From contig JAQTXE010000003.1 of NCBI GenBank assembly GCA_028688935.1, positions 1 to 39,127 of the forward strand: DNA of 39,127 nt. The letters run 5' to 3'. This DNA is from Syntrophales bacterium. Lineage in GTDB: Bacteria; Desulfobacterota; Desulfobaccia; Desulfobaccales; 0-14-0-80-60-11. The position numbers and the translations under genes were made by a program. Below are positions 2,675-32,721 of the stretch, piece by piece. Below the pieces are notes generated by a model. It was not told where the DNA came from and made no database searches. It saw nothing but the letters and a program-made list of their open reading frames with translations. Every line of letters starts with the position of its first letter. Position 1 is the stretch's first letter.

Positions 2675-2685
2675 AAAGGTATAGA

Positions 2686-2850
2686 GAAGATGGGTACCCC
2701 CCAAGGGGTTTAAGAGGGAAGCCGGTTTAAATCCGGCACGGTCCCGCCGCTGTAACCGGGGACGAAACCTGCGGCAAGCCACTGTTTCCTTAAGGAAATG
2801 GGAAGGCGCAGGAACTAGAACGATCCGGAAGTCAGAAGACCTGCCTATCT
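2686..2850 (+). promoter_or_regulatory. cobalamin (B12) riboswitch aptamer
   Basis: Contains the conserved core AGAGGGAAGCCGGTTTAAATCCGGCACGGTCCCGCCGCTGTAA, then GGGGACGAA, the B12-box-like AAGCCACTG, and the 3' element GGAAGTCAGAAGACCTGCC. Order and spacing match the Cobalamin family consensus as I know it. Confidence 0.85.
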
Positions 2851-2942
2851 GTCCAGGCTCATGTCCCCGAGGTAGGGACTTGCAAGCCGGTCCGGAGGTT
2901 TAAGCCCCGGACCCCCCTGGGATCAAGAAAGCTGGGTGCCAT

Positions 2943-2974
2943 CCCTGGGTCTTAAATGACCCGGGGTTTTTTTT
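2943..2974 (+). terminator. intrinsic terminator (riboswitch expression platform)
   Basis: Stem CCCTGGGTC (2943-2951), loop TTAAAT, stem GACCCGGGG (2958-2966), followed by T8 (2967-2974). Confidence 0.7.
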
Positions 2975-3002
2975 GCCCAGAACGCGGCGGGCGCCAGGGG
3001 AG

Positions 3003-3035
3003 GTTAGTAGCCAGTAGTCAGTGGCCAGTAGCCAG
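3003..3035. repeat. heptamer tandem array, GCCAGTA unit
   Basis: Parses as gttagta|gccagta|gtcagtg|gccagta|gccag. The same unit recurs at 17764-17800. Confidence 0.8.
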
Positions 3036-3137
3036 GAAAAGACTTGAAGAATTGGGTTGTCTGGCAACTGGCTACTAATACGCGGGGATCGGGAGCAAGA
3101 GTGGAAGAAGTTAAATCATTTAGCAAAAGGAGGCATC

Positions 3138-3398
3138 ATGAAAGACGGACTGATCGTTTATCTGGTGAGCACCGCCGGTGTGCCGGAGGAGTTCAACGCG
3201 CCTGCCGCCGCCCAAGACCTGGGTTATCACGCCGACCGGGTGGCGGTGGTGGCCCCGGACCAGGGCTTTTTTACCGTGGAGGACGCCTGGCATTTCCTCC
3301 TCACCCGGGGTTGCGGCCGCATCCGCCTGGTGGTAGGCCAGGCGGAGGGCCCGGACCACCTGCGCCCTCTGGGCCCCGCAGTGCGGCTCTACGGCTAA
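3138..3398 (+). CDS. small hypothetical protein (86 aa) downstream of the cobalamin riboswitch
   Basis: ATG at 3138 is preceded by AAAGGAGG (3126-3133). It is in frame with track ORF 3057..3398. I recognise no family. The upstream M (3057) lies in the repeat region with no SD. Confidence 0.5.
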   Translation: MKDGLIVYLVSTAGVPEEFNAPAAAQDLGYHADRVAVVAPDQGFFTVEDAWHFLLTRGCGRIRLVVGQAEGPDHLRPLGPAVRLYG

Positions 3399-3420
3399 TA
3401 CCAATTCGACCTCATACCAA

Positions 3421-3525
3421 GTCGCAATCAAACGACAATGTTTCCGTAGCGAATCTTGTATTCGCCCAGAATGGCGGGCGAACACAAGGTTCGCCCCTAC
3501 AGTTTGCTGCCTTTTGATTGCGGCT
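3421..3525. repeat. REPIN-like element: two inverted GTAG-headed palindromes nested in an outer inverted repeat
   Basis: Forward copy: GTAGCGAATCTTGTATTCGCCC (3447-3468). Inverted copy at 3476-3500 has reverse complement GTAGGGGCGAACCTTGTGTTCGCCC. Outer arms are GTCGCAATCAAA (3421-3432) and TTTGATTGCGGC (3514-3525). Confidence 0.65.
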
Positions 3526-3566
3526 TGCTATCAAACGGAGCCTTTTGACTGCAACTCGGTATAATT

Positions 3567-3586
3567 CACCACAGAGGCACAGAGGA
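3567..3586. repeat. tandem CACAGAGG array (left arm of an inverted pair)
   Basis: Reads cacCACAGAGGCACAGAGGa. Complementary arrays lie at 3749-3774, and there is a single unit at 3699-3706. Confidence 0.7.
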
Positions 3587-3621
3587 CATATAACATTTGC
3601 CAAAAGTTCTTTCCTCTTATT

Positions 3622-3648
3622 CCCTCTCCCCCCGGCGGGGGGAGAGGG
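3622..3648. repeat. G/C palindrome CCCTCTCCCCCC-GGC-GGGGGGAGAGGG
   Basis: A perfect 12-bp stem visible in the sequence. It is followed by TCAGGGTGAGGGG. It translates to the low-complexity 'SPRRGERE/PPAGGEGQGEG' strings seen in the spurious track ORFs. Confidence 0.6.
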
Positions 3649-3705
3649 TCAGGGTGAGGGGGGGGAGGAAAAATATTTTGGCAACGAGTATAGATTTACA
3701 CAGAG

Positions 3706-3741
3706 GAAAAAAATAGGCTGTGGCGCGACCGCGCCACAGCC
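3706..3741 (-). terminator. intrinsic terminator for the minus-strand nlpC-like/171-aa operon
   Basis: Perfect palindrome GGCTGTGGCGCG-AC-CGCGCCACAGCC (3716-3741). On the minus strand it is followed by TATTTTTTT (A-run 3707-3713 on the plus strand). Confidence 0.55.
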
Positions 3742-3748
3742 TAAAATA

Positions 3749-3774
3749 TTCTCTGTGCTCTCTGTTTCTCTGTC
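3749..3774. repeat. tandem CTCTGTG-type array (right arm, inverted relative to 3567-3586)
   Basis: Reads ttCTCTGTGCTCTCTGTTTCTCTGTc, the reverse complement of the CACAGAG unit. Confidence 0.7.
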
Positions 3775-3779
3775 GCCAA

Positions 3780-3802
3780 GGCGGGCGAGACGCCCGCCCT
3801 AC
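3780..3802. repeat. GTAG-headed REP-like palindrome (second family)
   Basis: Reverse complement is GTAGGGCGGGCGTCTCGCCCGCC. A sister copy at 38959-38982 has reverse complement GTAGGGTGGGCGTCCCCGCCCGCC. Confidence 0.6.
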
Positions 3803-3864
3803 CAAATTTTTATGCTTTTAAGGCGGGTCCCAACGGTCCATGAGAAACTGTGATGAAATCTTTC

Positions 3865-17926: not shown

Positions 17927-18871
17927 GTGAAAGTAGCCATCCTGGCGGCGGGCTTAGGCACCCGGCTCCGCCCCCTCACGGACCTGGTGCCCAAGACCCT
18001 GATGCCCGTCCTGAACCGGCCTTTGATAGGGGTGCTTTTAGCCCAGGTGGAGGAGGCCGGGTTTCTCCAGGTGGCGGTGAACACCCACCATCTGGCGGAG
18101 CAGGTGCAGCAGTTTTTGGTATCCAGACCCTGGAGCTTCAACCTGAGTATCAGCCCGGAGCCGGAGCTGCTGGGCACCGGCGGCGGCTTAAGGCAACTGG
18201 GGGAGATTCTTAGGGCCGAGGCTTTTTTGGCCATCAACGGCGACATCCTCACCGGCCTGGACCTGGGGGCCATCCGCCGCAGTCACCGGCAGGAGGCTGC
18301 CACCACCCTGGTGCTCCATGATTGTCCACCGTTTAATAACGTCTGGGTAGATGGAGCGGGGAAATTGGCGGGCGTCGGGGAGCGGCCGGCCGCGGCTCAG
18401 GGGCCGCCCCTGGCTTATACCGGGGTCCAGGTGGTGGGAAGAAAAATTTTAGAATATATCCCCCCCGGTGGTCCTTATGACCTGGTGGCCGCCTGGCGCC
18501 AGGCCCTGGAGGCAGGGGAGACCATCGACACCACGGTTATGGCCGGGCATTTCTGGCAAGACCTGGGCACCCCCGAGGCATATCTTACGGCCCACCAGCG
18601 GCTGCTCCAGGGGGAGGCCCCGGAATTGGCCCGCTATTTCGGGCCTCTGGCCGATCCTTTGATTGGCCCCGGCAGCTACATTGAACCGGGCGTAAAATTC
18701 GGCGGCGGCGTCTCTCTGGGGGCCATGGTCCGCATCGGCGCGGGGGCCTATTTACGACGCACGGTGGTTTGGGATGGGGCTGCCATCGACCCGGGGGTGG
18801 AGTTGCAAGATTGCATCGTTGCTTCCGGGGTAAGGGTAGGGGCCTCGGCCCGGGGCCAGGTGCTGGCGTGA
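17927..18871 (+). CDS. sugar-1-phosphate nucleotidyltransferase with C-terminal left-handed beta-helix (MurU/GlmU-like NTP transferase)
   Basis: Has the ILAAGLGTRLRPLT motif. The C-terminal hexapeptide-like repeats read IGPGSYIEPGVKFGGGVSLGAMVRIGAGAYL. The start is GTG after GGAG. Confidence 0.8.
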   Translation: MKVAILAAGLGTRLRPLTDLVPKTLMPVLNRPLIGVLLAQVEEAGFLQVAVNTHHLAEQVQQFLVSRPWSFNLSISPEPELLGTGGGLRQLGEILRAEAFLAINGDILTGLDLGAIRRSHRQEAATTLVLHDCPPFNNVWVDGAGKLAGVGERPAAAQGPPLAYTGVQVVGRKILEYIPPGGPYDLVAAWRQALEAGETIDTTVMAGHFWQDLGTPEAYLTAHQRLLQGEAPELARYFGPLADPLIGPGSYIEPGVKFGGGVSLGAMVRIGAGAYLRRTVVWDGAAIDPGVELQDCIVASGVRVGASARGQVLA

Positions 18872-26686: not shown

Positions 26687-29626
26687 CTAACGTGCCTTTT
26701 TGCGGCGGGGTGCGGTCTCGGGAAATAATTGGGGCTGCCGGGTCTGCCGCTTGGCGGCAGCCGGAGATTCATCCTGCCTTTGCAGTATATCCGGATTGAG
26801 GGCCTGAACCAAGGGGGAAAGCAGGGGGCGGCGCTTCTTGCCCCAGAGGGTGCGGGTCCGGGCCCGGGTCAAAAAAACCTGCCGGGAGGCCCGGGTGAGC
26901 CCCACGTAAAAGAGGCGATTTTCTTCTTCCGGGTCCCCATGCTCTTCCCCTTGAGGTTCCCAAGGCAGGAGGCCGGCTTCGCAACCGACGATGAAAATAT
27001 AAGGAAATTCCAAGCCCTTGGCCGCATGCAGGCTGAGGAGCTTCACTTTTTCCGCGGCCAGGTCCAGGCCGTCCAATTCCGGGCCCACGCTTTCTTTGGG
27101 GAGCAGGCAGGGGATGCCTGCGGCCGTGAGGTGGCGCTCCAGTTCCGGACCCAAGGCATGGAGGCGGTAGAGCACGGCCACGTCCCGGAAACCGGCTTTT
27201 TCTTCCGTGTGGTGCCGGACTTTTTCGTCCTCCAGGGCCAGGTGGCTAAAGCCCCCCACCAGCTTTTCGATTTCTTTGGCCACGGCCCGGGCCTCCCCGG
27301 CTTCGGTAGCCCGTTCCAGCAGCATCAGGGGCTGCTCTCCGGGCTGGTGGGTCGTCATGGCCGGAAGGGGCACCCCGGCCGCGGCCCGGACCTGGCGGGC
27401 CGCCTCCAGGATGGGCGGGGGCAGGCGATAAGTTTCGGTAAAATTGAGGGTCTCTGCATTAGGCCAGTCCTGGCGAAAATGGGTGAAATATTGGGGCGAA
27501 GCTCCCCGGAAGCCGTAAATGGCCTGGTCCGGGTCGCCGATGACCATAATCTCGGCGTCCGGGCCGGCCAGGGCCATAAAGAGCCGGTATTGGGCGGCGT
27601 TCAGGTCCTGGTATTCATCCACCAGCAGGTGCCGAAAGCGCCGCCGCTGGGCCTTCTGCAAACCGGGATGCCGGGTGAGCAGCAAAGTAGGCCGGGCGAT
27701 CAGGTCCTCATAATCCCACAGCCCTTCTCGCCTAAGCGCGGCTTCATAATCTTGGAAGGCCGCCACCTCCGGTTCGTTAACTTCTTCCAGGTCTTCCGGA
27801 TATTTCAGGTCCTGCTTCCAATGAATGATGCGGTTTTCCAGGGCGGAGAAAGGGACCTTACGGGCCTTGGCCGCCCGGCGGAGTAACTGGCGCCTGGTTT
27901 CTTCCGGGGCAACCTCCCGGGGGTTTTCCTCCCGGGCTTGGAGTAGCTGGTGGCCCAGAGCATGAAAAGTCTTGATGGTCAAACGCTCCAGACCCGGAAA
28001 ATCCGGGAGTAGACCCCGGATGCGGGCTTCCATCTCCCCCGCGGCCTGGCGGGTGAAGGTGAGGGCCAGGATACTCTCCGGCTCCACCCGGCGCCGGGCC
28101 AACAGATAGGCCAGGCGGTGAGTCAGGGCCCGGGTCTTGCCGGTGCCCGGCCCGGCCTGGACGATCAGGGGCGGCCCTTCATGGAGAACGGCTTGCCGTT
28201 GGGCGGGGTTTAAACCGGCGAGCAAGGGATCGTCGGGGATTGCCGGGGCTGGTCCGGCAACTTTGAAAAGGGGGGTGTCCGCCGCGGGTACGGAAGCAGG
28301 TGCCGCAGGATTCCGGCTTTCCGGGGCCGCCGGGGCCGGCGTGTTCCAGAAAGCCACCTGCCCCTGGATTTGGCGGCGTTCCTCCGGGGTGAAGAGGCGA
28401 ATCTCCCCATAGACCCCGTCATAGCCCGGGGCGATGTGCGCCTGGCCCCGGCGCATTTTGTCCATGCCGTAGGCCAGGAGGCTGCCGCCCTCCCGGGCCA
28501 GGTCCGCCAGGGGAGCCCGGCGCAGGATGGCCAACTCCGGCCCCAAATTCTCCAGCAGGCGGAAATAGAGGCGCTGCACTTTTTTGCTGTTGGGATTGAC
28601 CTCCAGCACCTGGCCCAGCACTTCCGGCAGGGGGATCAGGGATTCGAAAGGCCGGGCCTGGGGCGAGGGTTGGCCGGGTTGCCGGTCCGCCAGGTCCAGG
28701 ACCCGGTGCATCACGCCATAAGTCAAAGGTTTGTGGCAATGGGGGCATTTGCCCCCCCAGGCCGCGGTTTCCTCGGGGGTGGCCCGCAGGTCGCAGGCCC
28801 GGTGGCCGTCCAGATGGTATTTGCCTTCTTCGGGAAAAAATTCGATGGTGCCCCCACACCCTTCCTGGGTGCGGATGGCCCGGGCCAGGTCCGGGTAGGT
28901 GGGAGGGACGTGGAAGATATTGGCCTCCCGGGCCAGTTTCGGAGGGGAGTGGGCGTCGGAGTTGGAAACTAGCAGGTACCGGTCCAGGCCGCTTACCCGC
29001 CAGTTCATGGCCGGGTCGGAAGAAAGTCCGGTCTCCAGGGCGAATATATGTTCGGTATGCTCTTCAAAACATTCTTCCAGGGAATCGAAACCGCTTTTGG
29101 CCCCTAACACGGAAAACCAGGGGGTCCAGATGTGCGCCGGGATGACCAGGGAGGCGGGGTCGATCTCCAGGGCCAGTTCCAGGACGAGCTTGGCGTCCAA
29201 CCCCAAAATGGGGCGGCCGTCGGAGGTGACGTTTCCCAGGCGGCCCAGGCGCTCCGAGAACTTTTGGGCCGCCTCCAGGCTGGGAAGCAGCAGCAGCAGA
29301 TGGACCTTGCGGACCCTTCCGGCTTTTTTATAAATGGAGCTCACCTCCCCGGTGATGACGAAACGCACCGGGGGGACTTTTTCCCAATGGGGGCCGCGCA
29401 GCTTGAGAGGCAGGGCCAGCCCGGGTTTCAGCTCATATATTCCGGGGCCTGCGGGCTCCAACCCTGCGGCCAGTTCCTTGAGCCACTCCGGATGGGTGCA
29501 ATCGCCGGTGCCCACCACCTGCACCCCTTTATAACGGCCCCAAAGATCCAGGTGTGGTAGATCGGCGGCTTTTCCGGTGGCCATGGAGAAACGGGAGTGA
29601 ATGTGCAGGTCGGCGATCACTTCCAT
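26687..29626 (-). CDS. fusion protein: N-terminal EndoQ-like PHP-fold nuclease plus C-terminal UvrD/PcrA-type SF1 helicase
   Basis: The N-terminus reads IADLHIHSRFSMA...GVQVVGTGDCTHPEWLKEL, with Zn-knuckle CPHCHKPLTYGVMHRV. A Pro/Ala linker follows. The helicase half carries LNPAQRQAV, Walker A AGPGTGKT, LLVDEYQD and downstream helicase motifs. Confidence 0.8.
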   Translation of the reverse strand: MEVIADLHIHSRFSMATGKAADLPHLDLWGRYKGVQVVGTGDCTHPEWLKELAAGLEPAGPGIYELKPGLALPLKLRGPHWEKVPPVRFVITGEVSSIYKKAGRVRKVHLLLLLPSLEAAQKFSERLGRLGNVTSDGRPILGLDAKLVLELALEIDPASLVIPAHIWTPWFSVLGAKSGFDSLEECFEEHTEHIFALETGLSSDPAMNWRVSGLDRYLLVSNSDAHSPPKLAREANIFHVPPTYPDLARAIRTQEGCGGTIEFFPEEGKYHLDGHRACDLRATPEETAAWGGKCPHCHKPLTYGVMHRVLDLADRQPGQPSPQARPFESLIPLPEVLGQVLEVNPNSKKVQRLYFRLLENLGPELAILRRAPLADLAREGGSLLAYGMDKMRRGQAHIAPGYDGVYGEIRLFTPEERRQIQGQVAFWNTPAPAAPESRNPAAPASVPAADTPLFKVAGPAPAIPDDPLLAGLNPAQRQAVLHEGPPLIVQAGPGTGKTRALTHRLAYLLARRRVEPESILALTFTRQAAGEMEARIRGLLPDFPGLERLTIKTFHALGHQLLQAREENPREVAPEETRRQLLRRAAKARKVPFSALENRIIHWKQDLKYPEDLEEVNEPEVAAFQDYEAALRREGLWDYEDLIARPTLLLTRHPGLQKAQRRRFRHLLVDEYQDLNAAQYRLFMALAGPDAEIMVIGDPDQAIYGFRGASPQYFTHFRQDWPNAETLNFTETYRLPPPILEAARQVRAAAGVPLPAMTTHQPGEQPLMLLERATEAGEARAVAKEIEKLVGGFSHLALEDEKVRHHTEEKAGFRDVAVLYRLHALGPELERHLTAAGIPCLLPKESVGPELDGLDLAAEKVKLLSLHAAKGLEFPYIFIVGCEAGLLPWEPQGEEHGDPEEENRLFYVGLTRASRQVFLTRARTRTLWGKKRRPLLSPLVQALNPDILQRQDESPAAAKRQTRQPQLFPETAPRRKKAR

Positions 29627-29761
29627 GGTTTGTCAACTTATCACAAAACCAGTAGTGAAGCCAGAATCCGCCTTCCCGAAAAAGACGCTATCTACTCCTC
29701 TGGACGCGGGCGAAATGGTGATTATATAAATGTTATCAAAAACCATCTGGAGAAAAGGAGG

Positions 29762-30040
29762 ATGAAAACAATGATTAAGGCAATTAACAGGATTTTGCTG
29801 GCAGGGGCGCTTCTCGCATTTATGTCTGGTGCGGTCATGTCCCAGACAAGCAAGCCGGAAAAGCCCTCAAAACCGGAGCATCCCAAGGCGGAGCAGATGA
29901 AACCGGGCAAAATGAAACCGGGGGAAATGAAACCGGGTGAAATGAAGCCTGAGAAAATGATGCCGGGTCAGATGAAACAGGAGCACCAGCAGCCAGGGCA
30001 ACAGAAACCTGACCATCCGACGTCGGAGCACCCGAAGTAA
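29762..30040 (+). CDS. small secreted Met/Lys/Pro/Gln/His-rich repeat protein (92 aa)
   Basis: The ATG at 29762 is preceded by AAAGGAGG. It has a signal peptide (INRILLAGALLAFMSGAVMS), then (MKPGE)-like pentapeptide repeats. The track ORF's upstream 55 codons lack an SD. Confidence 0.6.
   Translation: MKTMIKAINRILLAGALLAFMSGAVMSQTSKPEKPSKPEHPKAEQMKPGKMKPGEMKPGEMKPEKMMPGQMKQEHQQPGQQKPDHPTSEHPK
29897..29980 (+). repeat. in-frame 15-nt tandem repeat (ATGAAACCGGGNGAA, ~5.5 copies)
   Basis: Encodes MKPGK MKPGE MKPGE MKPEK MMPGQ MKQ. Confidence 0.85.
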
Positions 30041-31442: not shown

Positions 31443-31717
31443 TCTGCACCATATACCGGGTTGCCTGTCCATTAGTGCGAAATAGAGGCGCCTGCGGCCG
31501 CGCTCCGGCGGATCCAGGCGCAGGCGGCTTTAAAAACCCGCATTTATGCCACTCCCGCCCCAACGCGGTCATAGGCATCCGCCTGCCAGAAAAATCCCCC
31601 ACTCCCTCTGGACGCCGGAGATTTGATGATTACCTGTATAGCAAATGTGACCCTACCCAGGGTGAAAGACACTCTCGGCCTCTGGCCTGGGGGACTGAAA
31701 GGGAAGGAGGAGGGCCA

Positions 31718-32053
31718 GTGGAACGCATCAAACCGGAGACGTTGCGCAGTTGGTTGGAGGACCCGGAAGTCTTTATCCTGGATGTGCGCACCCCCCCGGC
31801 CTGGGAGTCCAGCCAGGTCATGATCCCCGGGGCCCACCGCTTTAATCCCCGGCAGCCGTTGGAGACCCGGGTCAAGAATATACCTCAGGACAAGAAAATA
31901 GTGGCTTACTGAGCCTGACACGCCGAAGGCACCAGCGCCCGGGTGGCGCAGGAACTGGAGCAGTCGGGGTTCCCCCCGGTTTACATCCTGGAAGGCGGCT
32001 GGCGGGCCTGGGAAAAAGAAAATTTTCCCACGGTTCCTAAGGAAGAAGCTTAG
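31718..32053 (+). CDS. single-domain rhodanese with two in-frame TGA codons at the catalytic loop (candidate selenoprotein, U-A-U)
   Basis: GTG at 31718 follows AAGGAGGA (31704-31711). After ...KKIVAY come TGA(31910) GCC TGA(31916), then 44 in-frame sense codons HAEGTSARVAQELEQSGFPPVYILEGGWRAW..., the canonical rhodanese C-terminus, ending at TAG 32051. The alternative reading is a pseudogene. Confidence 0.55.
31932..31952 (+). promoter_or_regulatory. candidate bacterial SECIS hairpin
   Basis: CC-A-GCGCC, loop CGGGT, GGCGC-A-GG. That is 7 bp with one A/A mismatch and a G-containing apical loop. The loop lies about 28 and about 22 nt after the two TGAs. Confidence 0.35.
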
Positions 32054-32073
32054 GGGCGGTTTACTTTTTTGTA

Positions 32074-32166
32074 ATGATGCAGATGAAATTTTCCCGGGTG
32101 GAGGTTCTCAAAGGTGGATGGAGCGGCTGGGTCAAGGCAGGATATCCCACCGAACCCCTGAAATAA
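32074..32166 (+). pseudogene. remnant of a second rhodanese C-terminus
   Basis: A 30-codon ORF MMQMKFSRVEVLKGGWSGWVKAGYPTEPLK reproduces the GF..V..L.GGW..W..AG.P.E end of a rhodanese domain. It lacks the N-terminal two-thirds and the active-site loop. Confidence 0.4.
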
Positions 32167-32334: not shown

Positions 32335-32532
32335 TTAATTACCTGTTTGCGAGGAAGCCTTGGCAGGCCAGACGGGTCGGGACTCCTTTTCAAAATACGG
32401 CTGAAAGACGTCCTCATCTAGGCGCAGCATCAAACTGCCGCACTGGGTACAGAAAGCCGTGTGGTCATCCAGTCCGGCCACCCTTTGATCCCGACTTTTA
32501 CAGTCGACGCATTGATATTCGTAAATCGGCAT
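32335..32532 (-). CDS. FmdB-family zinc-ribbon protein (65 aa)
   Basis: The MPIYEYQCVDC start plus a second CxxC (CTQCGS) fit the family. The SD GGGGGAG precedes the ATG at 32532. The track's 12 extra N-terminal codons are unlikely. Confidence 0.8.
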   Translation of the reverse strand: MPIYEYQCVDCKSRDQRVAGLDDHTAFCTQCGSLMLRLDEDVFQPYFEKESRPVWPAKASSQTGN

Positions 32533-32721
32533 AAGATCTCCCCCTTTGCTATGCCTTTTAGAAAGCAATAATCATGCCCAATATTAGAATCAAGGGGGGC
32601 AATTAATTTTTTAATAGAAATTTGAACTAAATAGCTTCAAAATGAGGCAAAATTTATTTGTCCATATTTCCGGGAGGGCTATGGGGGAATTGACATATGT
32701 TACTTTTTGCATCATCGGCAA

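What the first reader, a model, noticed from the sequence alone, without database searches (positions are those of the whole stretch)
31718..32053. Rhodanese with TGA-GCC-TGA at the catalytic loop: candidate double-selenocysteine (U-A-U) protein
The ORF track ends this frame at 31912. The biologically sensible gene starts at GTG 31718 (SD AAGGAGGA) and encodes a single-domain rhodanese. After the beta-strand ...DKKIVAY, where rhodaneses carry their catalytic Cys loop, come TGA (31910-12), GCC, TGA (31916-18). Then 44 sense codons follow in the same frame (HAEGTSARVAQELEQSGFPPVYILEGGWRAWEKENFPTVPKEEA, TAG at 32051). These reproduce the conserved rhodanese C-terminal half (GF..V..L.GGW..W), and the read-through product is 111 aa, a normal rhodanese size. 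Both stops are TGA, one substitution from Cys codons, and neither is TAA or TAG. They sit at C-x-C spacing; from memory I believe some rhodanese subfamilies have a YCxCP.E..SA loop, but this is unverified. A 7-bp hairpin with a G-containing loop (31932-31952) lies about 20-30 nt downstream, which is the geometry of bacterial SECIS elements. Rhodanese-related sulfurtransferases are an established bacterial selenoprotein family. Two Sec residues one position apart served by one SECIS would be unusual.
Basis: partly seen in the sequence, partly recalled or inferred. Interest (0 to 1): 0.75.

Follow-up and report, generated by a model that had tools for sequence, protein, structure and literature searches.

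The report
Double-selenocysteine rhodanese, known U-x-U form
This is a real small sulfur-transfer-type enzyme gene in which two adjacent "stop" codons almost certainly encode the rare amino acid selenocysteine, but this double form of the family was already noted in 2007, so it is a good new example rather than a discovery.

Summary
Window 31718-32053 (+) encodes a 111-codon single-domain rhodanese with TGA-GCC-TGA at 31910-31918, followed by an intact C-terminal half.

With U→C it passes NCBIfam NF041203 "rhodanese_LYCAU, rhodanese-related (seleno)protein" (121.8 bits, cut-off 115). The second TGA is the family's known Sec and sits at the canonical catalytic-Cys position. The first TGA replaces the motif's Cys.

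Evidence that both are read through:
- Relatives at 77-94% identity keep the frame, and one has Cys-Ala-TGA.
- All-Cys homologues read Y-C-x-C-P-x-E.
- 25 other U-x-U loci, from at least 8 independent Cys→TGA switches, all keep an intact downstream half.
- A second U-x-U clade shows ω = 0.05-0.09 beyond the SECIS zone.
- A 5-bp hairpin (31935-31949, loop CGGGU) pairs in 99-100% of 122 sequences. It covaries between two synonymous sites and meets all bSECIS criteria for both UGAs.

The organism is a Thermodesulfobacteriota bacterium. Its Sec machinery could not be checked.

A U-x-U rhodanese-related sulfurtransferase was reported by Zhang & Gladyshev (2007), so this is a new member of a known kind.

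Side finding in related loci: U-x-U rhodanese fused to an octahaem HAO-like cytochrome.

The parts
31704..31711 (+). Shine-Dalgarno AAGGAGGA, 6 nt upstream of the start codon
   Evidence: Read directly. Conserved (GGAGG core) in relatives L001-L006.
31718..32053 (+). Coding sequence of a 111-residue single-domain rhodanese selenoprotein of the NF041203 rhodanese_LYCAU family, U-x-U form. GTG start, TAG stop.
   Evidence: 121.8 bits vs cut-off 115 with U->C. Frame and stop conserved in L001-L006.
31910..31912 (+). First in-frame TGA (U1, residue 65). It replaces the Cys of the L-Y-C-A-U motif, two residues before the catalytic position, at the end of the central beta-strand.
   Evidence: Cys (TGC) in L006 and in 109 of 120 family loci. 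TGA in L001-L005 and in 25 other U-x-U loci. Position in the fold from the model of the CxC homologue P0192.
31916..31918 (+). Second in-frame TGA (U2, residue 67). This is the family's known Sec position. It aligns with the canonical rhodanese catalytic Cys and heads the six-residue loop U-H-A-E-G-T.
   Evidence: NF041203 profile register. Ungapped alignment to 6mxv YFYCGGGFRSA. Conserved TGA in all relatives. Cys in Y-C-x-C homologues.
31932..31952 (+). SECIS element inside the coding sequence. Core 5-bp stem 31935-39/31945-49 and apical loop CGGGU 31940-44 with an invariant G at 31941. Lower A.A mismatch plus two pairs (31932/33 with 31951/52). The spacer to the stem is 16 nt from UGA2 and 22 nt from UGA1.
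   Evidence: Core pairs are 99-100% paired in 122 distinct sequences. Pair 33:45 is CG 72 / UA 45 at two synonymous third positions. 0 of 500 shuffles reach the observed values and slid controls give 23-63%. RNAalifold predicts only this hairpin. dS is 0-0.08 in codons 68-85 against 0.35-0.85 elsewhere. All bSECIS criteria are met.
32080..32166 (+). Relic (last 28 codons plus TAA) of a tandem paralogue. In relatives L004/L005 and L132 this paralogue is an intact signal-peptide-bearing C-S-TGA member of the same family.

Best explanation
The gene encodes a cytoplasmic, stand-alone rhodanese-domain selenoprotein of the NF041203 'LYCAU' family in which both residues of the C-x-U active-site motif are selenocysteine (A-Y-U-A-U-H-A-E-G-T-S).

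Shown here: the two TGAs are translated through; the second lies at the canonical catalytic-Cys position at the N-terminus of the active-site helix; the first lies two residues upstream at the end of the beta-strand; and a single conserved 5-bp hairpin with an N-G-N-N-Y loop lies 16 nt after the second UGA and 22 nt after the first.

Inferred: SelB carrying Sec-tRNA(Sec) binds this one SECIS and delivers Sec at the first UGA. After two translocations, a second SelB complex on the same hairpin delivers Sec at the second UGA. The two selenols form a redox-active pair (selenol/diselenide, the analogue of the Cys-x-Sec selenenylsulfide). The catalytic Sec would carry a persulfide/perselenide-type adduct and the upstream Sec would resolve it. 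This makes the protein more likely a sulfur/selenium-species oxidoreductase or relay than a plain thiosulfate sulfurtransferase.

The U-x-U state arose from C-x-U by a single TGY->TGA substitution. This switch has happened repeatedly in the family.
For: Family membership: NF041203 121.8 bits vs cut-off 115. The family is listed as a CxU selenoprotein in the 2026 review.

Cys/Sec pairs: L006 has Cys-Ala-TGA at 77% identity. 109 of 120 metagenomic loci are CxU and 11 are UxU. 292 all-Cys homologues at E<=1e-10 mostly read YCxCPxE.

Read-through: window vs L004 shows 5 differences in the 132 nt after the TGAs against about 48 expected at the upstream synonymous rate (P = 2e-19). An independent UxU clade (L050/L082/L126) has dS 0.38-0.77 and dN about 0.035 (omega 0.05-0.09) beyond the SECIS zone. 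All 8 unbiased '...Y'-ending relatives checked are TGA-xxx-TGA with an intact C-terminal half.

SECIS: (covariation at synonymous sites, invariant loop G). The published bSECIS criteria (loop 3-9, stem 4-16 bp, G in the first two loop positions, 16-37 nt from UGA to loop, MFE <= -7.5) are all met, with 21 nt (UGA2) and 27 nt (UGA1) to the loop.

No UGA reassignment: TGA ends 12 of 25 genes in the window.

Host: nearest genomes are Thermodesulfobacteriota MAGs at 91% and 89% pyruvate kinase identity. The review names this phylum among the organisms most enriched in selenoprotein genes.

Recurrence: at least 8 independent C->U switches on a tree of 113 sequences.

Precedent: a UxU form of rhodanese-related sulfurtransferase was reported in 2007.

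Geometry: in the pLDDT-94 model of CxC homologue P0192, both Cys lie in the 3-residue strand-to-helix link.

Redox wiring: in related loci the UxU domain is fused in frame to an octahaem HAO-like cytochrome c.
Against: No selA, selB, selC or selD could be examined for this genome. The window has no tRNA and no selenium genes.

No protein-level evidence exists, and nothing shows directly that the residue inserted at the first UGA is Sec.

In E. coli the minimal SECIS lies 11 nt from the UGA. From memory, and not verified here, altered spacing sharply reduces insertion. One hairpin serving spacers of both 16 and 22 nt is therefore an inference.

The hairpin is short and its folding energy is unremarkable for this GC-rich sequence. 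Rfam has no matching model.

The gene is dispensable in close relatives: it is deleted in L131 and truncated in L132.

The diselenide/resolving-residue chemistry is inferred by analogy only.
Confidence: 0.82

Rival explanations
1. Only the second UGA is decoded as selenocysteine. The first UGA mostly terminates, acting as a selenium-dependent or leaky expression gate, or is read through by a near-cognate tRNA (Cys or Trp). The mature full-length protein would then be rare, or would carry a standard residue at position 65.
For: The family's SECIS is positioned for the second UGA. The first is 6 nt further away (22-nt spacer), outside the E. coli optimum of 11 nt. The first UGA is followed by G/A/U rather than the C that always follows the second. 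There are no protein data.
Against: The first-position TGA has been fixed independently at least 8 times and persists in diverged clades under omega 0.05-0.2. That is hard to reconcile with a mostly terminating codon. It always replaces a Cys, which is the classic Cys/Sec pair signature. Both spacings fall within the published 16-37 nt range. The column-1 TGA was seen only together with the column-2 TGA and the SECIS, in 8 of 8 unbiased cases. Trp or Ser variants are seen only at column 2.
Confidence: 0.12
2. The gene is a recent pseudogene. A C-x-U selenoprotein gene suffered a TGC->TGA nonsense mutation at the first position and is decaying, consistent with loss of the gene in close relatives.
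For: The locus is unstable. The gene is deleted in the 91% relative L131 and truncated in the 89% relative L132, and the tandem paralogue is a relic in the window. The change is one substitution from Cys.
Against: Window and L004 have diverged to dS = 0.50 upstream, yet keep TGA-GCC-TGA, the frame, the stop and the SECIS. There are 5 changes in 132 nt downstream (P = 2e-19 under neutrality) and no indels. The same U-x-U state with intact downstream sequence occurs in 25 other loci from many lineages.
Confidence: 0.03
3. Sequencing or assembly artefact creating spurious stop codons.
For: None specific.
Against: The identical TGA-GCC-TGA is found in five independent assemblies from JGI and Logan samples. 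The same architecture is found in dozens of unrelated metagenome contigs.
Confidence: 0.005

Closest known systems
NCBIfam NF041203 'rhodanese_LYCAU', rhodanese-related (seleno)protein. [quoted passage not shown]
   Same: Same domain and same register. The score is above the equivalog cut-off (121.8 vs 115). The Sec sits at the 'U' column, and the same in-ORF SECIS hairpin sits at the same distance.
   Different: The conserved Cys of L-Y-C-A-U is also TGA, giving two Sec instead of one. This copy has no signal peptide, unlike many family members of about 93-98 truncated residues.
U-x-U form of 'rhodanese-related sulfurtransferase' reported by Zhang & Gladyshev 2007 (NAR 35:4952, PMC1976440, their Fig. 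3A) in the Olavius algarvensis delta-proteobacterial symbiont metagenome.
   Same: A second Sec evolved next to the known one in a rhodanese-related sulfurtransferase, giving UxU, in Deltaproteobacteria/Thermodesulfobacteriota. Only the CxU form can become UxU by gaining one Sec, so it is almost certainly the same family (inference).
   Different: Different organism and habitat. The 2007 paper gives one sentence and one alignment figure, which is not held in the library, so sequence-level identity could not be checked. Recurrence, selection, SECIS covariation and spacing were worked out here, not there.
Other closely spaced double-Sec bacterial selenoproteins listed in the 2026 review: TsoB rhodanese/DsbD fusion (UxxxxU, NF045694), FmdB-family regulator (UxxU), MbdU and selenobacteriocin.
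   Same: Two UGA codons a few codons apart within one bacterial ORF. TsoB also has a rhodanese-type domain (weak hit, 18.4 bits).
   Different: Different families and motifs. The window protein is far below the TsoB cut-off (18 vs 805 bits).
E. coli fdhF SECIS / bSECIS consensus model (Zhang & Gladyshev 2005, as summarised in PMC13188914 and PMC8659212).
   Same: A stem-loop inside the ORF just downstream of the UGA, with a small apical loop carrying G at position 2 followed by G/U, and a UGA-to-loop distance within 16-37 nt.
   Different: It is much shorter (5-bp core) and has no conserved bulged U. The spacer is 16 nt rather than 11 nt. It is apparently shared by two UGA codons. No Rfam model matches.
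Single-domain rhodaneses GlpE (1gmx), PspE-type proteins and the rhodanese domains of persulfide dioxygenase and CoA-persulfide reductase (5ve3, 3ict, 8a56).
   Same: Same fold (TM 0.7-0.8 for the CxC homologue model). The six-residue active-site loop is followed by S/T-A at the helix N-terminus.
   Different: Those use a single catalytic Cys. Here that residue is Sec, with a second Sec/Cys two residues upstream. No solved structure of the CxC/CxU subfamily with known function was found.

Membership tests
NCBIfam NF041203 rhodanese_LYCAU (seleno)protein | Whole-protein HMM score at or above the curated equivalog cut-off (115 bits) | tested here: met
   121.8 bits with U->C, profile 21-126 of 126. 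The relative L006 scores 115.0.
NCBIfam NF041203 rhodanese_LYCAU (seleno)protein | TGA (Sec) at the 'U' column of the L-Y-C-A-U motif | tested here: met
   The N-terminal 64 aa end at profile position 82 and the piece after the second TGA resumes at 86-87. So Y82, U1 83, A84, U2 85. TGA at 31916-18.
NCBIfam NF041203 rhodanese_LYCAU (seleno)protein | Cys at the 'C' column of L-Y-C-A-U | tested here: not met
   TGA at 31910-12 instead of TGY. It is Cys in L006 and in 109 of 120 loci. This is the one point of variation. It defines the U-x-U sub-form rather than excluding homology.
NCBIfam NF041203 rhodanese_LYCAU (seleno)protein | Family-specific in-ORF SECIS hairpin downstream of the Sec codon | tested here: met
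   Same columns as in 121 other family sequences, 99-100% paired.
Bacterial SECIS consensus model (bSECISearch criteria as quoted in PMC13188914 Fig. 2A) | Apical loop of 3-9 nt and upper stem of 4-16 bp | tested here: met
   Loop of 5 nt (CGGGU) and stem of 5 bp, plus 2 more pairs after an A.A mismatch.
Bacterial SECIS consensus model (bSECISearch criteria as quoted in PMC13188914 Fig. 2A) | At least one G in the first two loop positions, usually followed by G or U | tested here: met
   The loop is C-G-G-G-U. The G at alignment column 38 is invariant in 122 sequences.
Bacterial SECIS consensus model (bSECISearch criteria as quoted in PMC13188914 Fig. 2A) | [quoted passage not shown] | tested here: met
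   21 nt for the second UGA (31919-31939) and 27 nt for the first (31913-31939), read.
Bacterial SECIS consensus model (bSECISearch criteria as quoted in PMC13188914 Fig. 2A) | Minimum free energy <= -7.5 kcal/mol | tested here: met
   -7.6 kcal/mol for the 15-nt core and -10.0 for 31932-31952.
Genuine bacterial selenoprotein (general criteria) | Cys-containing homologues aligned at the TGA column(s) | tested here: met
   Column 1. Both columns: Y-C-x-C-P-x-E homologues.
Genuine bacterial selenoprotein (general criteria) | Purifying selection and an intact frame downstream of the TGA | tested here: met
   (omega 0.05-0.26 beyond the SECIS zone; no indels).
Genuine bacterial selenoprotein (general criteria) | Sec machinery (selA, selB, selC/tRNA-Sec, selD) in the same genome | not testable with these tools
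   None in the 39-kb window. Indirect support only: the host phylum is Thermodesulfobacteriota, a Sec-rich group.
Genuine bacterial selenoprotein (general criteria) | Selenium physically present in the protein (75Se labelling or mass spectrometry) | not testable with these tools
   Requires an experiment.
Rhodanese homology domain (Pfam PF00581) | Full-length domain match with a nucleophile at the head of a six-residue active-site loop after the central beta-strand | tested here: met
   PF00581 2-101 of 102, E = 2.6e-17. U2-H-A-E-G-T then S-A aligns gap-free with C-G-G-G-F-R then S-A of 6mxv. Strand-to-helix position from the model.
U-x-U form of rhodanese-related sulfurtransferase (Zhang & Gladyshev 2007) | Two Sec separated by one residue in a rhodanese-related sulfurtransferase | tested here: met
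   TGA-GCC-TGA. Text of PMC1976440.
U-x-U form of rhodanese-related sulfurtransferase (Zhang & Gladyshev 2007) | Orthology to the specific Olavius symbiont sequences of their Fig. 3A | not testable with these tools
   Figures are not held and no sequences are given in the text. It is inferred to be the same family, because only the CxU form can yield UxU by gaining one Sec.

The most novel reading that the evidence does not exclude
One minimal 15-nt SECIS hairpin programmes SelB-dependent selenocysteine insertion at two UGA codons 6 nt apart (spacers of 16 and 22 nt). This creates a diselenide-forming U-x-U redox centre at a rhodanese active site. The state has been selected independently at least 8 times from C-x-U. 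In my sample it is the only state found in an apparently undescribed class of periplasmic proteins, in which this domain is fused to an octahaem HAO-type cytochrome c. That would point to a dedicated selenium-based electron-transfer chemistry on sulfur, selenium or nitrogen species.
Probability: 0.5. Interest if true: 0.55.

Novelty: new member of a known kind. Interest (0 to 1): 0.35.

Why it matters
For annotation: this gene and hundreds of relatives are currently called as 64-98-residue fragments in public gene sets. In the fusion subfamily one roughly 540-residue protein is split into two or three ORFs.

For mechanism: the family offers a natural, very compact test bed for how far a bacterial SECIS can lie from its UGA, and for whether one element can reload SelB for a second insertion two codons later.

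For biochemistry: a Sec-x-Sec pair at a rhodanese active site would have a much lower redox potential and higher nucleophilicity than Cys-x-Cys. No member of this CxC/CxU/UxU subfamily has a known substrate.

None of this is conceptually new. The U-x-U form was recorded in 2007, and closely spaced double-Sec bacterial proteins are catalogued.

Tried and rejected
The exact N-terminal 64 aa were used instead.
- The genome-contig scan with the three-sequence read-through alignment found no relatives.
- The 49-sequence alignment was too diverse for the search for related loci.
- Exact look-up of the window's pyruvate kinase found nothing.
- Rfam at gathering and at E<=10 gave no SECIS or other meaningful hit on 31850-32060.
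- Single-sequence folding energies are not significant against shuffles, so thermodynamics alone cannot support the SECIS.
- The small GCC-GAA-GGC hairpin at 31922-31930, considered as a possible separate element for the first UGA, is broken in L006 and not conserved elsewhere.
- No tRNA was found in the window, and no tRNA-Sec in 1.83 Mb of fetched loci.
- A search for other in-frame-TGA genes in the window gave only junk. The 3044-3517 (+111 codons) and 17927-18871 (+76 codons) extensions translate to low-complexity sequence.
- Pfam annotation of 26 window ORFs found no selenium-metabolism genes.
- The promoter/terminator scan was uninformative. A terminator-like hairpin at 32033-32057 overlaps the stop codon, but the count is within shuffle expectation.
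- The structure search found only generic rhodaneses and no functionally characterised CxC member.
- Literature searches for a rhodanese/octahaem-HAO fusion found only papers that mention the two separately.
- Genome-wide UGA reassignment was considered and rejected, because TGA terminates 12 of 25 genes.

Full report
OBSERVATION. A GTG at 31718 is preceded by AAGGAGGA (31704-31711) and opens a frame that reads 64 codons ending ...DKKIVAY. Then come TGA (31910-12), GCC and TGA (31916-18), followed by 44 more sense codons and TAG at 32051-53. With the two stops replaced by Cys, the product is a complete Pfam Rhodanese domain (positions 2-101 of 102, E = 2.6e-17). The N-terminal 64 residues and the C-terminal 44 residues each pass the Pfam cut-off alone. 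The hairpin exists, but it is a 5-bp GC stem (31935-39/31945-49) with loop CGGGU, extended by an A.A mismatch and two more pairs.

IS IT TRANSLATED THROUGH BOTH STOPS? A word-indexed search of 5.8 billion proteins returned only three relatives. All were called as 64-66-residue fragments ending at the same place. Their contigs show that the 94% and 88% relatives (L001-L005, five independent assemblies) keep TGA-GCC-TGA, the frame and the same stop. The 77% relative (L006) reads Cys-Ala-TGA. Between the window and L004 the N-terminal half has dS = 0.50 and dN = 0.07. The 18 codons after the TGAs have no change at all, and the whole 132 nt downstream has 5 differences where about 48 would be expected at the upstream synonymous rate (P = 2e-19). 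A second, unrelated U-x-U clade (L050/L082/L126) gives the cleanest signal. Beyond the first 17 codons after the TGAs, dS = 0.38-0.77 with dN about 0.035, so omega = 0.05-0.09. TGA is the ordinary stop of 12 of 25 genes in the window, so there is no genome-wide reassignment. The pseudogene and artefact explanations are therefore untenable.

WHICH FAMILY. With U->C the protein scores 121.8 bits on NCBIfam NF041203, 'rhodanese_LYCAU, rhodanese-related (seleno)protein' (equivalog cut-off 115). [quoted passage not shown] The profile register puts the second TGA on the family's Sec column and the first TGA on the motif's Cys column. A full HMMER scan of 1.84 billion representatives with the N-terminal 64 residues found 63 relatives. 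Most end '...YC[A/S/T/D]', the CxU form truncated at the Sec. About 14 end exactly at '...Y'. A profile of those Y-enders retrieved 1400 proteins. DNA was fetched for eight Y-enders chosen without any sequence pattern (L007-L010, L211-L214; 31-49% identity to one another and 38-48% to the window's N-terminal half). All eight read Y-TGA-xxx-TGA followed by an intact ...GGW..W... half and a normal stop. None is U-x-C.

The metagenome collection was scanned with a pattern anchored on the loop codons that allowed Cys or TGA at the first column. Every one is a genuine family member: 109 are CxU and 11 are UxU. On a neighbour-joining tree of 113 read-through proteins, parsimony gives Cys as the ancestral state and at least 8 independent Cys->TGA switches.

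THE SECIS. In 122 distinct 72-nt segments aligned without gaps (alignment A6), the five core pairs (window 31935-39 with 31945-49) are paired in 99-100% of sequences. Pair 33:45 is C-G in 72, U-A in 45, U-G in 4 and unpaired in 1. Both columns are synonymous third positions (Ser AGY and Ala GCN), so protein constraints cannot explain the coupling. The formal count gives 94.5% of cells paired and 46 double-sided changes. None of 500 shuffles reaches these values, and every slid control falls to 23-63%. RNAalifold predicts this hairpin and nothing else. The second loop base is an invariant G. Against the published bSECIS criteria the window's element has a 5-nt loop, a 5-bp stem, G-G at loop positions 2-3, and 21 nt (second UGA) or 27 nt (first UGA) between UGA and loop. 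Its energy is -7.6 to -10.0 kcal/mol. All criteria are met for both codons. No separate conserved structure serves the first UGA. U-x-U and C-x-U genes use the same hairpin at the same place. One weak difference is that the extra C30-G48 pair is present in 15 of 16 U-x-U but 69 of 106 C-x-U sequences (Fisher P = 0.02, not corrected for phylogeny).

HOW IT PROBABLY WORKS. Shown: gap-free alignment to solved rhodaneses (6mxv, YFY-C-GGGFR-SA) and the conserved S-A..A-Q-x-L helix put the second Sec at the canonical catalytic-Cys position, heading a six-residue loop U-H-A-E-G-T. In a confident model (pLDDT 94) of the all-Cys homologue P0192, the central strand ends at the Tyr, the C-x-C triplet is the entire strand-to-helix link, and the helix starts at the following Pro. 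Structural neighbours are ordinary persulfide-carrying rhodaneses.

Inferred: SelB carrying Sec-tRNA(Sec) bound to the single hairpin decodes the first UGA with a 22-nt spacer. After two translocations, a second complex decodes the second UGA with a 16-nt spacer. The catalytic Sec takes up a sulfur or selenium adduct, and the Sec two residues upstream resolves it as a diselenide. This makes the site a low-potential redox pair. Indirect support for a redox role comes from related loci, where the U-x-U domain is fused to an octahaem cytochrome (see below). The main uncertainty is the identity and efficiency of decoding at the first UGA. In E. coli the minimal SECIS sits 11 nt from the UGA. From memory, and not verified here, altering that spacing reduces insertion sharply.

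CONTEXT. The window is a housekeeping chromosomal stretch: GyrA, MetRS, PFK, GpsA, MoaA, TamA/TamB, a UvrD-type helicase, transglutaminase-like protein, pyruvate kinase, GH57 branching enzyme, LpxC and a MiaB-like protein. Its GC content is 58.4%. The nearest genomes are a Thermodesulfobacteriota MAG (91% pyruvate-kinase identity) and a 'Deltaproteobacteria' groundwater MAG (89%), followed by Desulfobacca-like genomes at 67-71%. The review names this phylum among the organisms most enriched in selenoprotein genes. The locus itself is dynamic. In L004/L005 a second, signal-peptide-bearing C-S-TGA paralogue follows the U-x-U gene. In the window only its last 28 codons survive (32080-32166). In L131 the U-x-U gene is deleted. 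In L132 only its C-terminus remains, fused to the transglutaminase ORF, while the paralogue is intact.

NOVELTY. [quoted passage not shown] The 2026 review's table records only the CxU form and does not contain the string UxU, but it lists several other two- and three-Sec bacterial families. The window's gene is therefore a new member of a known kind. This analysis adds incremental points: the U-x-U state is common (9% of pattern hits; about a fifth of the nearest 50%-identity clusters) and polyphyletic; it is under strong selection; it always co-occurs with the second Sec in the cases checked; and it shares one minimal, covarying SECIS.

SIDE FINDING. In L212 and L213 (and L043, L054, L109) the U-x-U rhodanese has a signal peptide and scores 157.9 bits on NF041203. 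It continues in frame into a roughly 400-residue domain with eight CxxCH motifs. That domain's best solved relatives are hydroxylamine-oxidoreductase-like and hydrazine-dehydrogenase octahaem cytochromes (6h5l, E = 5e-31). Gene callers split the protein at the TGAs. The fusion is present in 5 of 17 U-x-U loci and 0 of 106 C-x-U loci. I found no description of it in the searchable literature.

Noticed in passing
L212:1501-3111, L213:787-2412; also L043, L054, L109: A signal peptide plus U-x-U rhodanese (NF041203, 157.9 bits) is fused in frame to an octahaem (8 CxxCH) HAO/hydrazine-dehydrogenase-family cytochrome c, giving read-through proteins of about 536-541 residues. Gene callers split them at the TGAs. 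The fusion is seen in 5 of 17 U-x-U loci and 0 of 106 C-x-U loci. No description was found in the searchable literature.
   Followed up: partly
window 32080-32166 (+): The last 28 codons plus TAA of a deleted tandem paralogue (QMKFSRVEVLKGGWSGWVKAGYPTEPLK*). In L004/L005 and L132 this paralogue is an intact periplasmic C-S-TGA member of the same selenoprotein family.
   Followed up: yes
L131:6250-6519 and L132:8480-9400: The closest genomes (91% and 89% pyruvate kinase identity) have lost the U-x-U gene. It is cleanly deleted in L131. In L132 only its C-terminal ~20 codons remain, fused in frame to the end of the transglutaminase-like ORF. The rhodanese pair is a gain/loss hotspot.
   Followed up: partly
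window 2675-2862 (+) and 2863-3860: A strong cobalamin riboswitch (RF00174, 122 bits) has no convincing gene downstream on its strand. The long ORF 3044-3517 is low-complexity junk. A 113-aa ORF at 3057-3398 looks protein-like but has no Pfam hit. The following genes are on the minus strand.
   Followed up: partly
window 32335-32568 (-): An FmdB-type zinc-ribbon gene (PF09723) is a conserved neighbour of the rhodanese (also in L001 and L003). The 2026 review lists an FmdB-family UxxU double selenoprotein. Here it is the all-Cys form (CxxC...CxxC).
   Followed up: no
L007:3735-4544: 465 nt downstream of a U-x-U rhodanese lies a GrdB-like gene (PF07355, 31 bits) with an in-frame TGA in ...LTPA-U-GVCNQ... 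and about 95 further sense codons. It is probably another selenoprotein in a genome that carries a U-x-U gene.
   Followed up: partly
proteins P0184, P0199, P0266, P0274: A few full-length homologues have Trp (Y-C-T-W-P/H-N-E) or Ser (Y-C-A-S-P-N-E) at the catalytic/Sec column. TGG is one step from TGA. These may be inactivated or functionally shifted members.
   Followed up: no
alignment A6, columns 30 and 48 (window 31933 and 31951): The extra lower-stem pair C30-G48 is present in 15 of 16 U-x-U sequences but only 69 of 106 C-x-U sequences (Fisher P = 0.02, not corrected for phylogeny). This may reflect a longer stem where two UGAs must be served.
   Followed up: partly
window 29597-30040 (+): A 147-aa ORF with an apparent signal peptide and a lysine/proline-rich KPGEMKPGEM-type repeat tail, with no Pfam match. 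It lies between the UvrD-like helicase and the transglutaminase-like gene.
   Followed up: no
L055 and L118: Two C-x-U members carry short C-terminal extensions with a CPDC(H/G) motif, distinct from the octahaem fusion.
   Followed up: no
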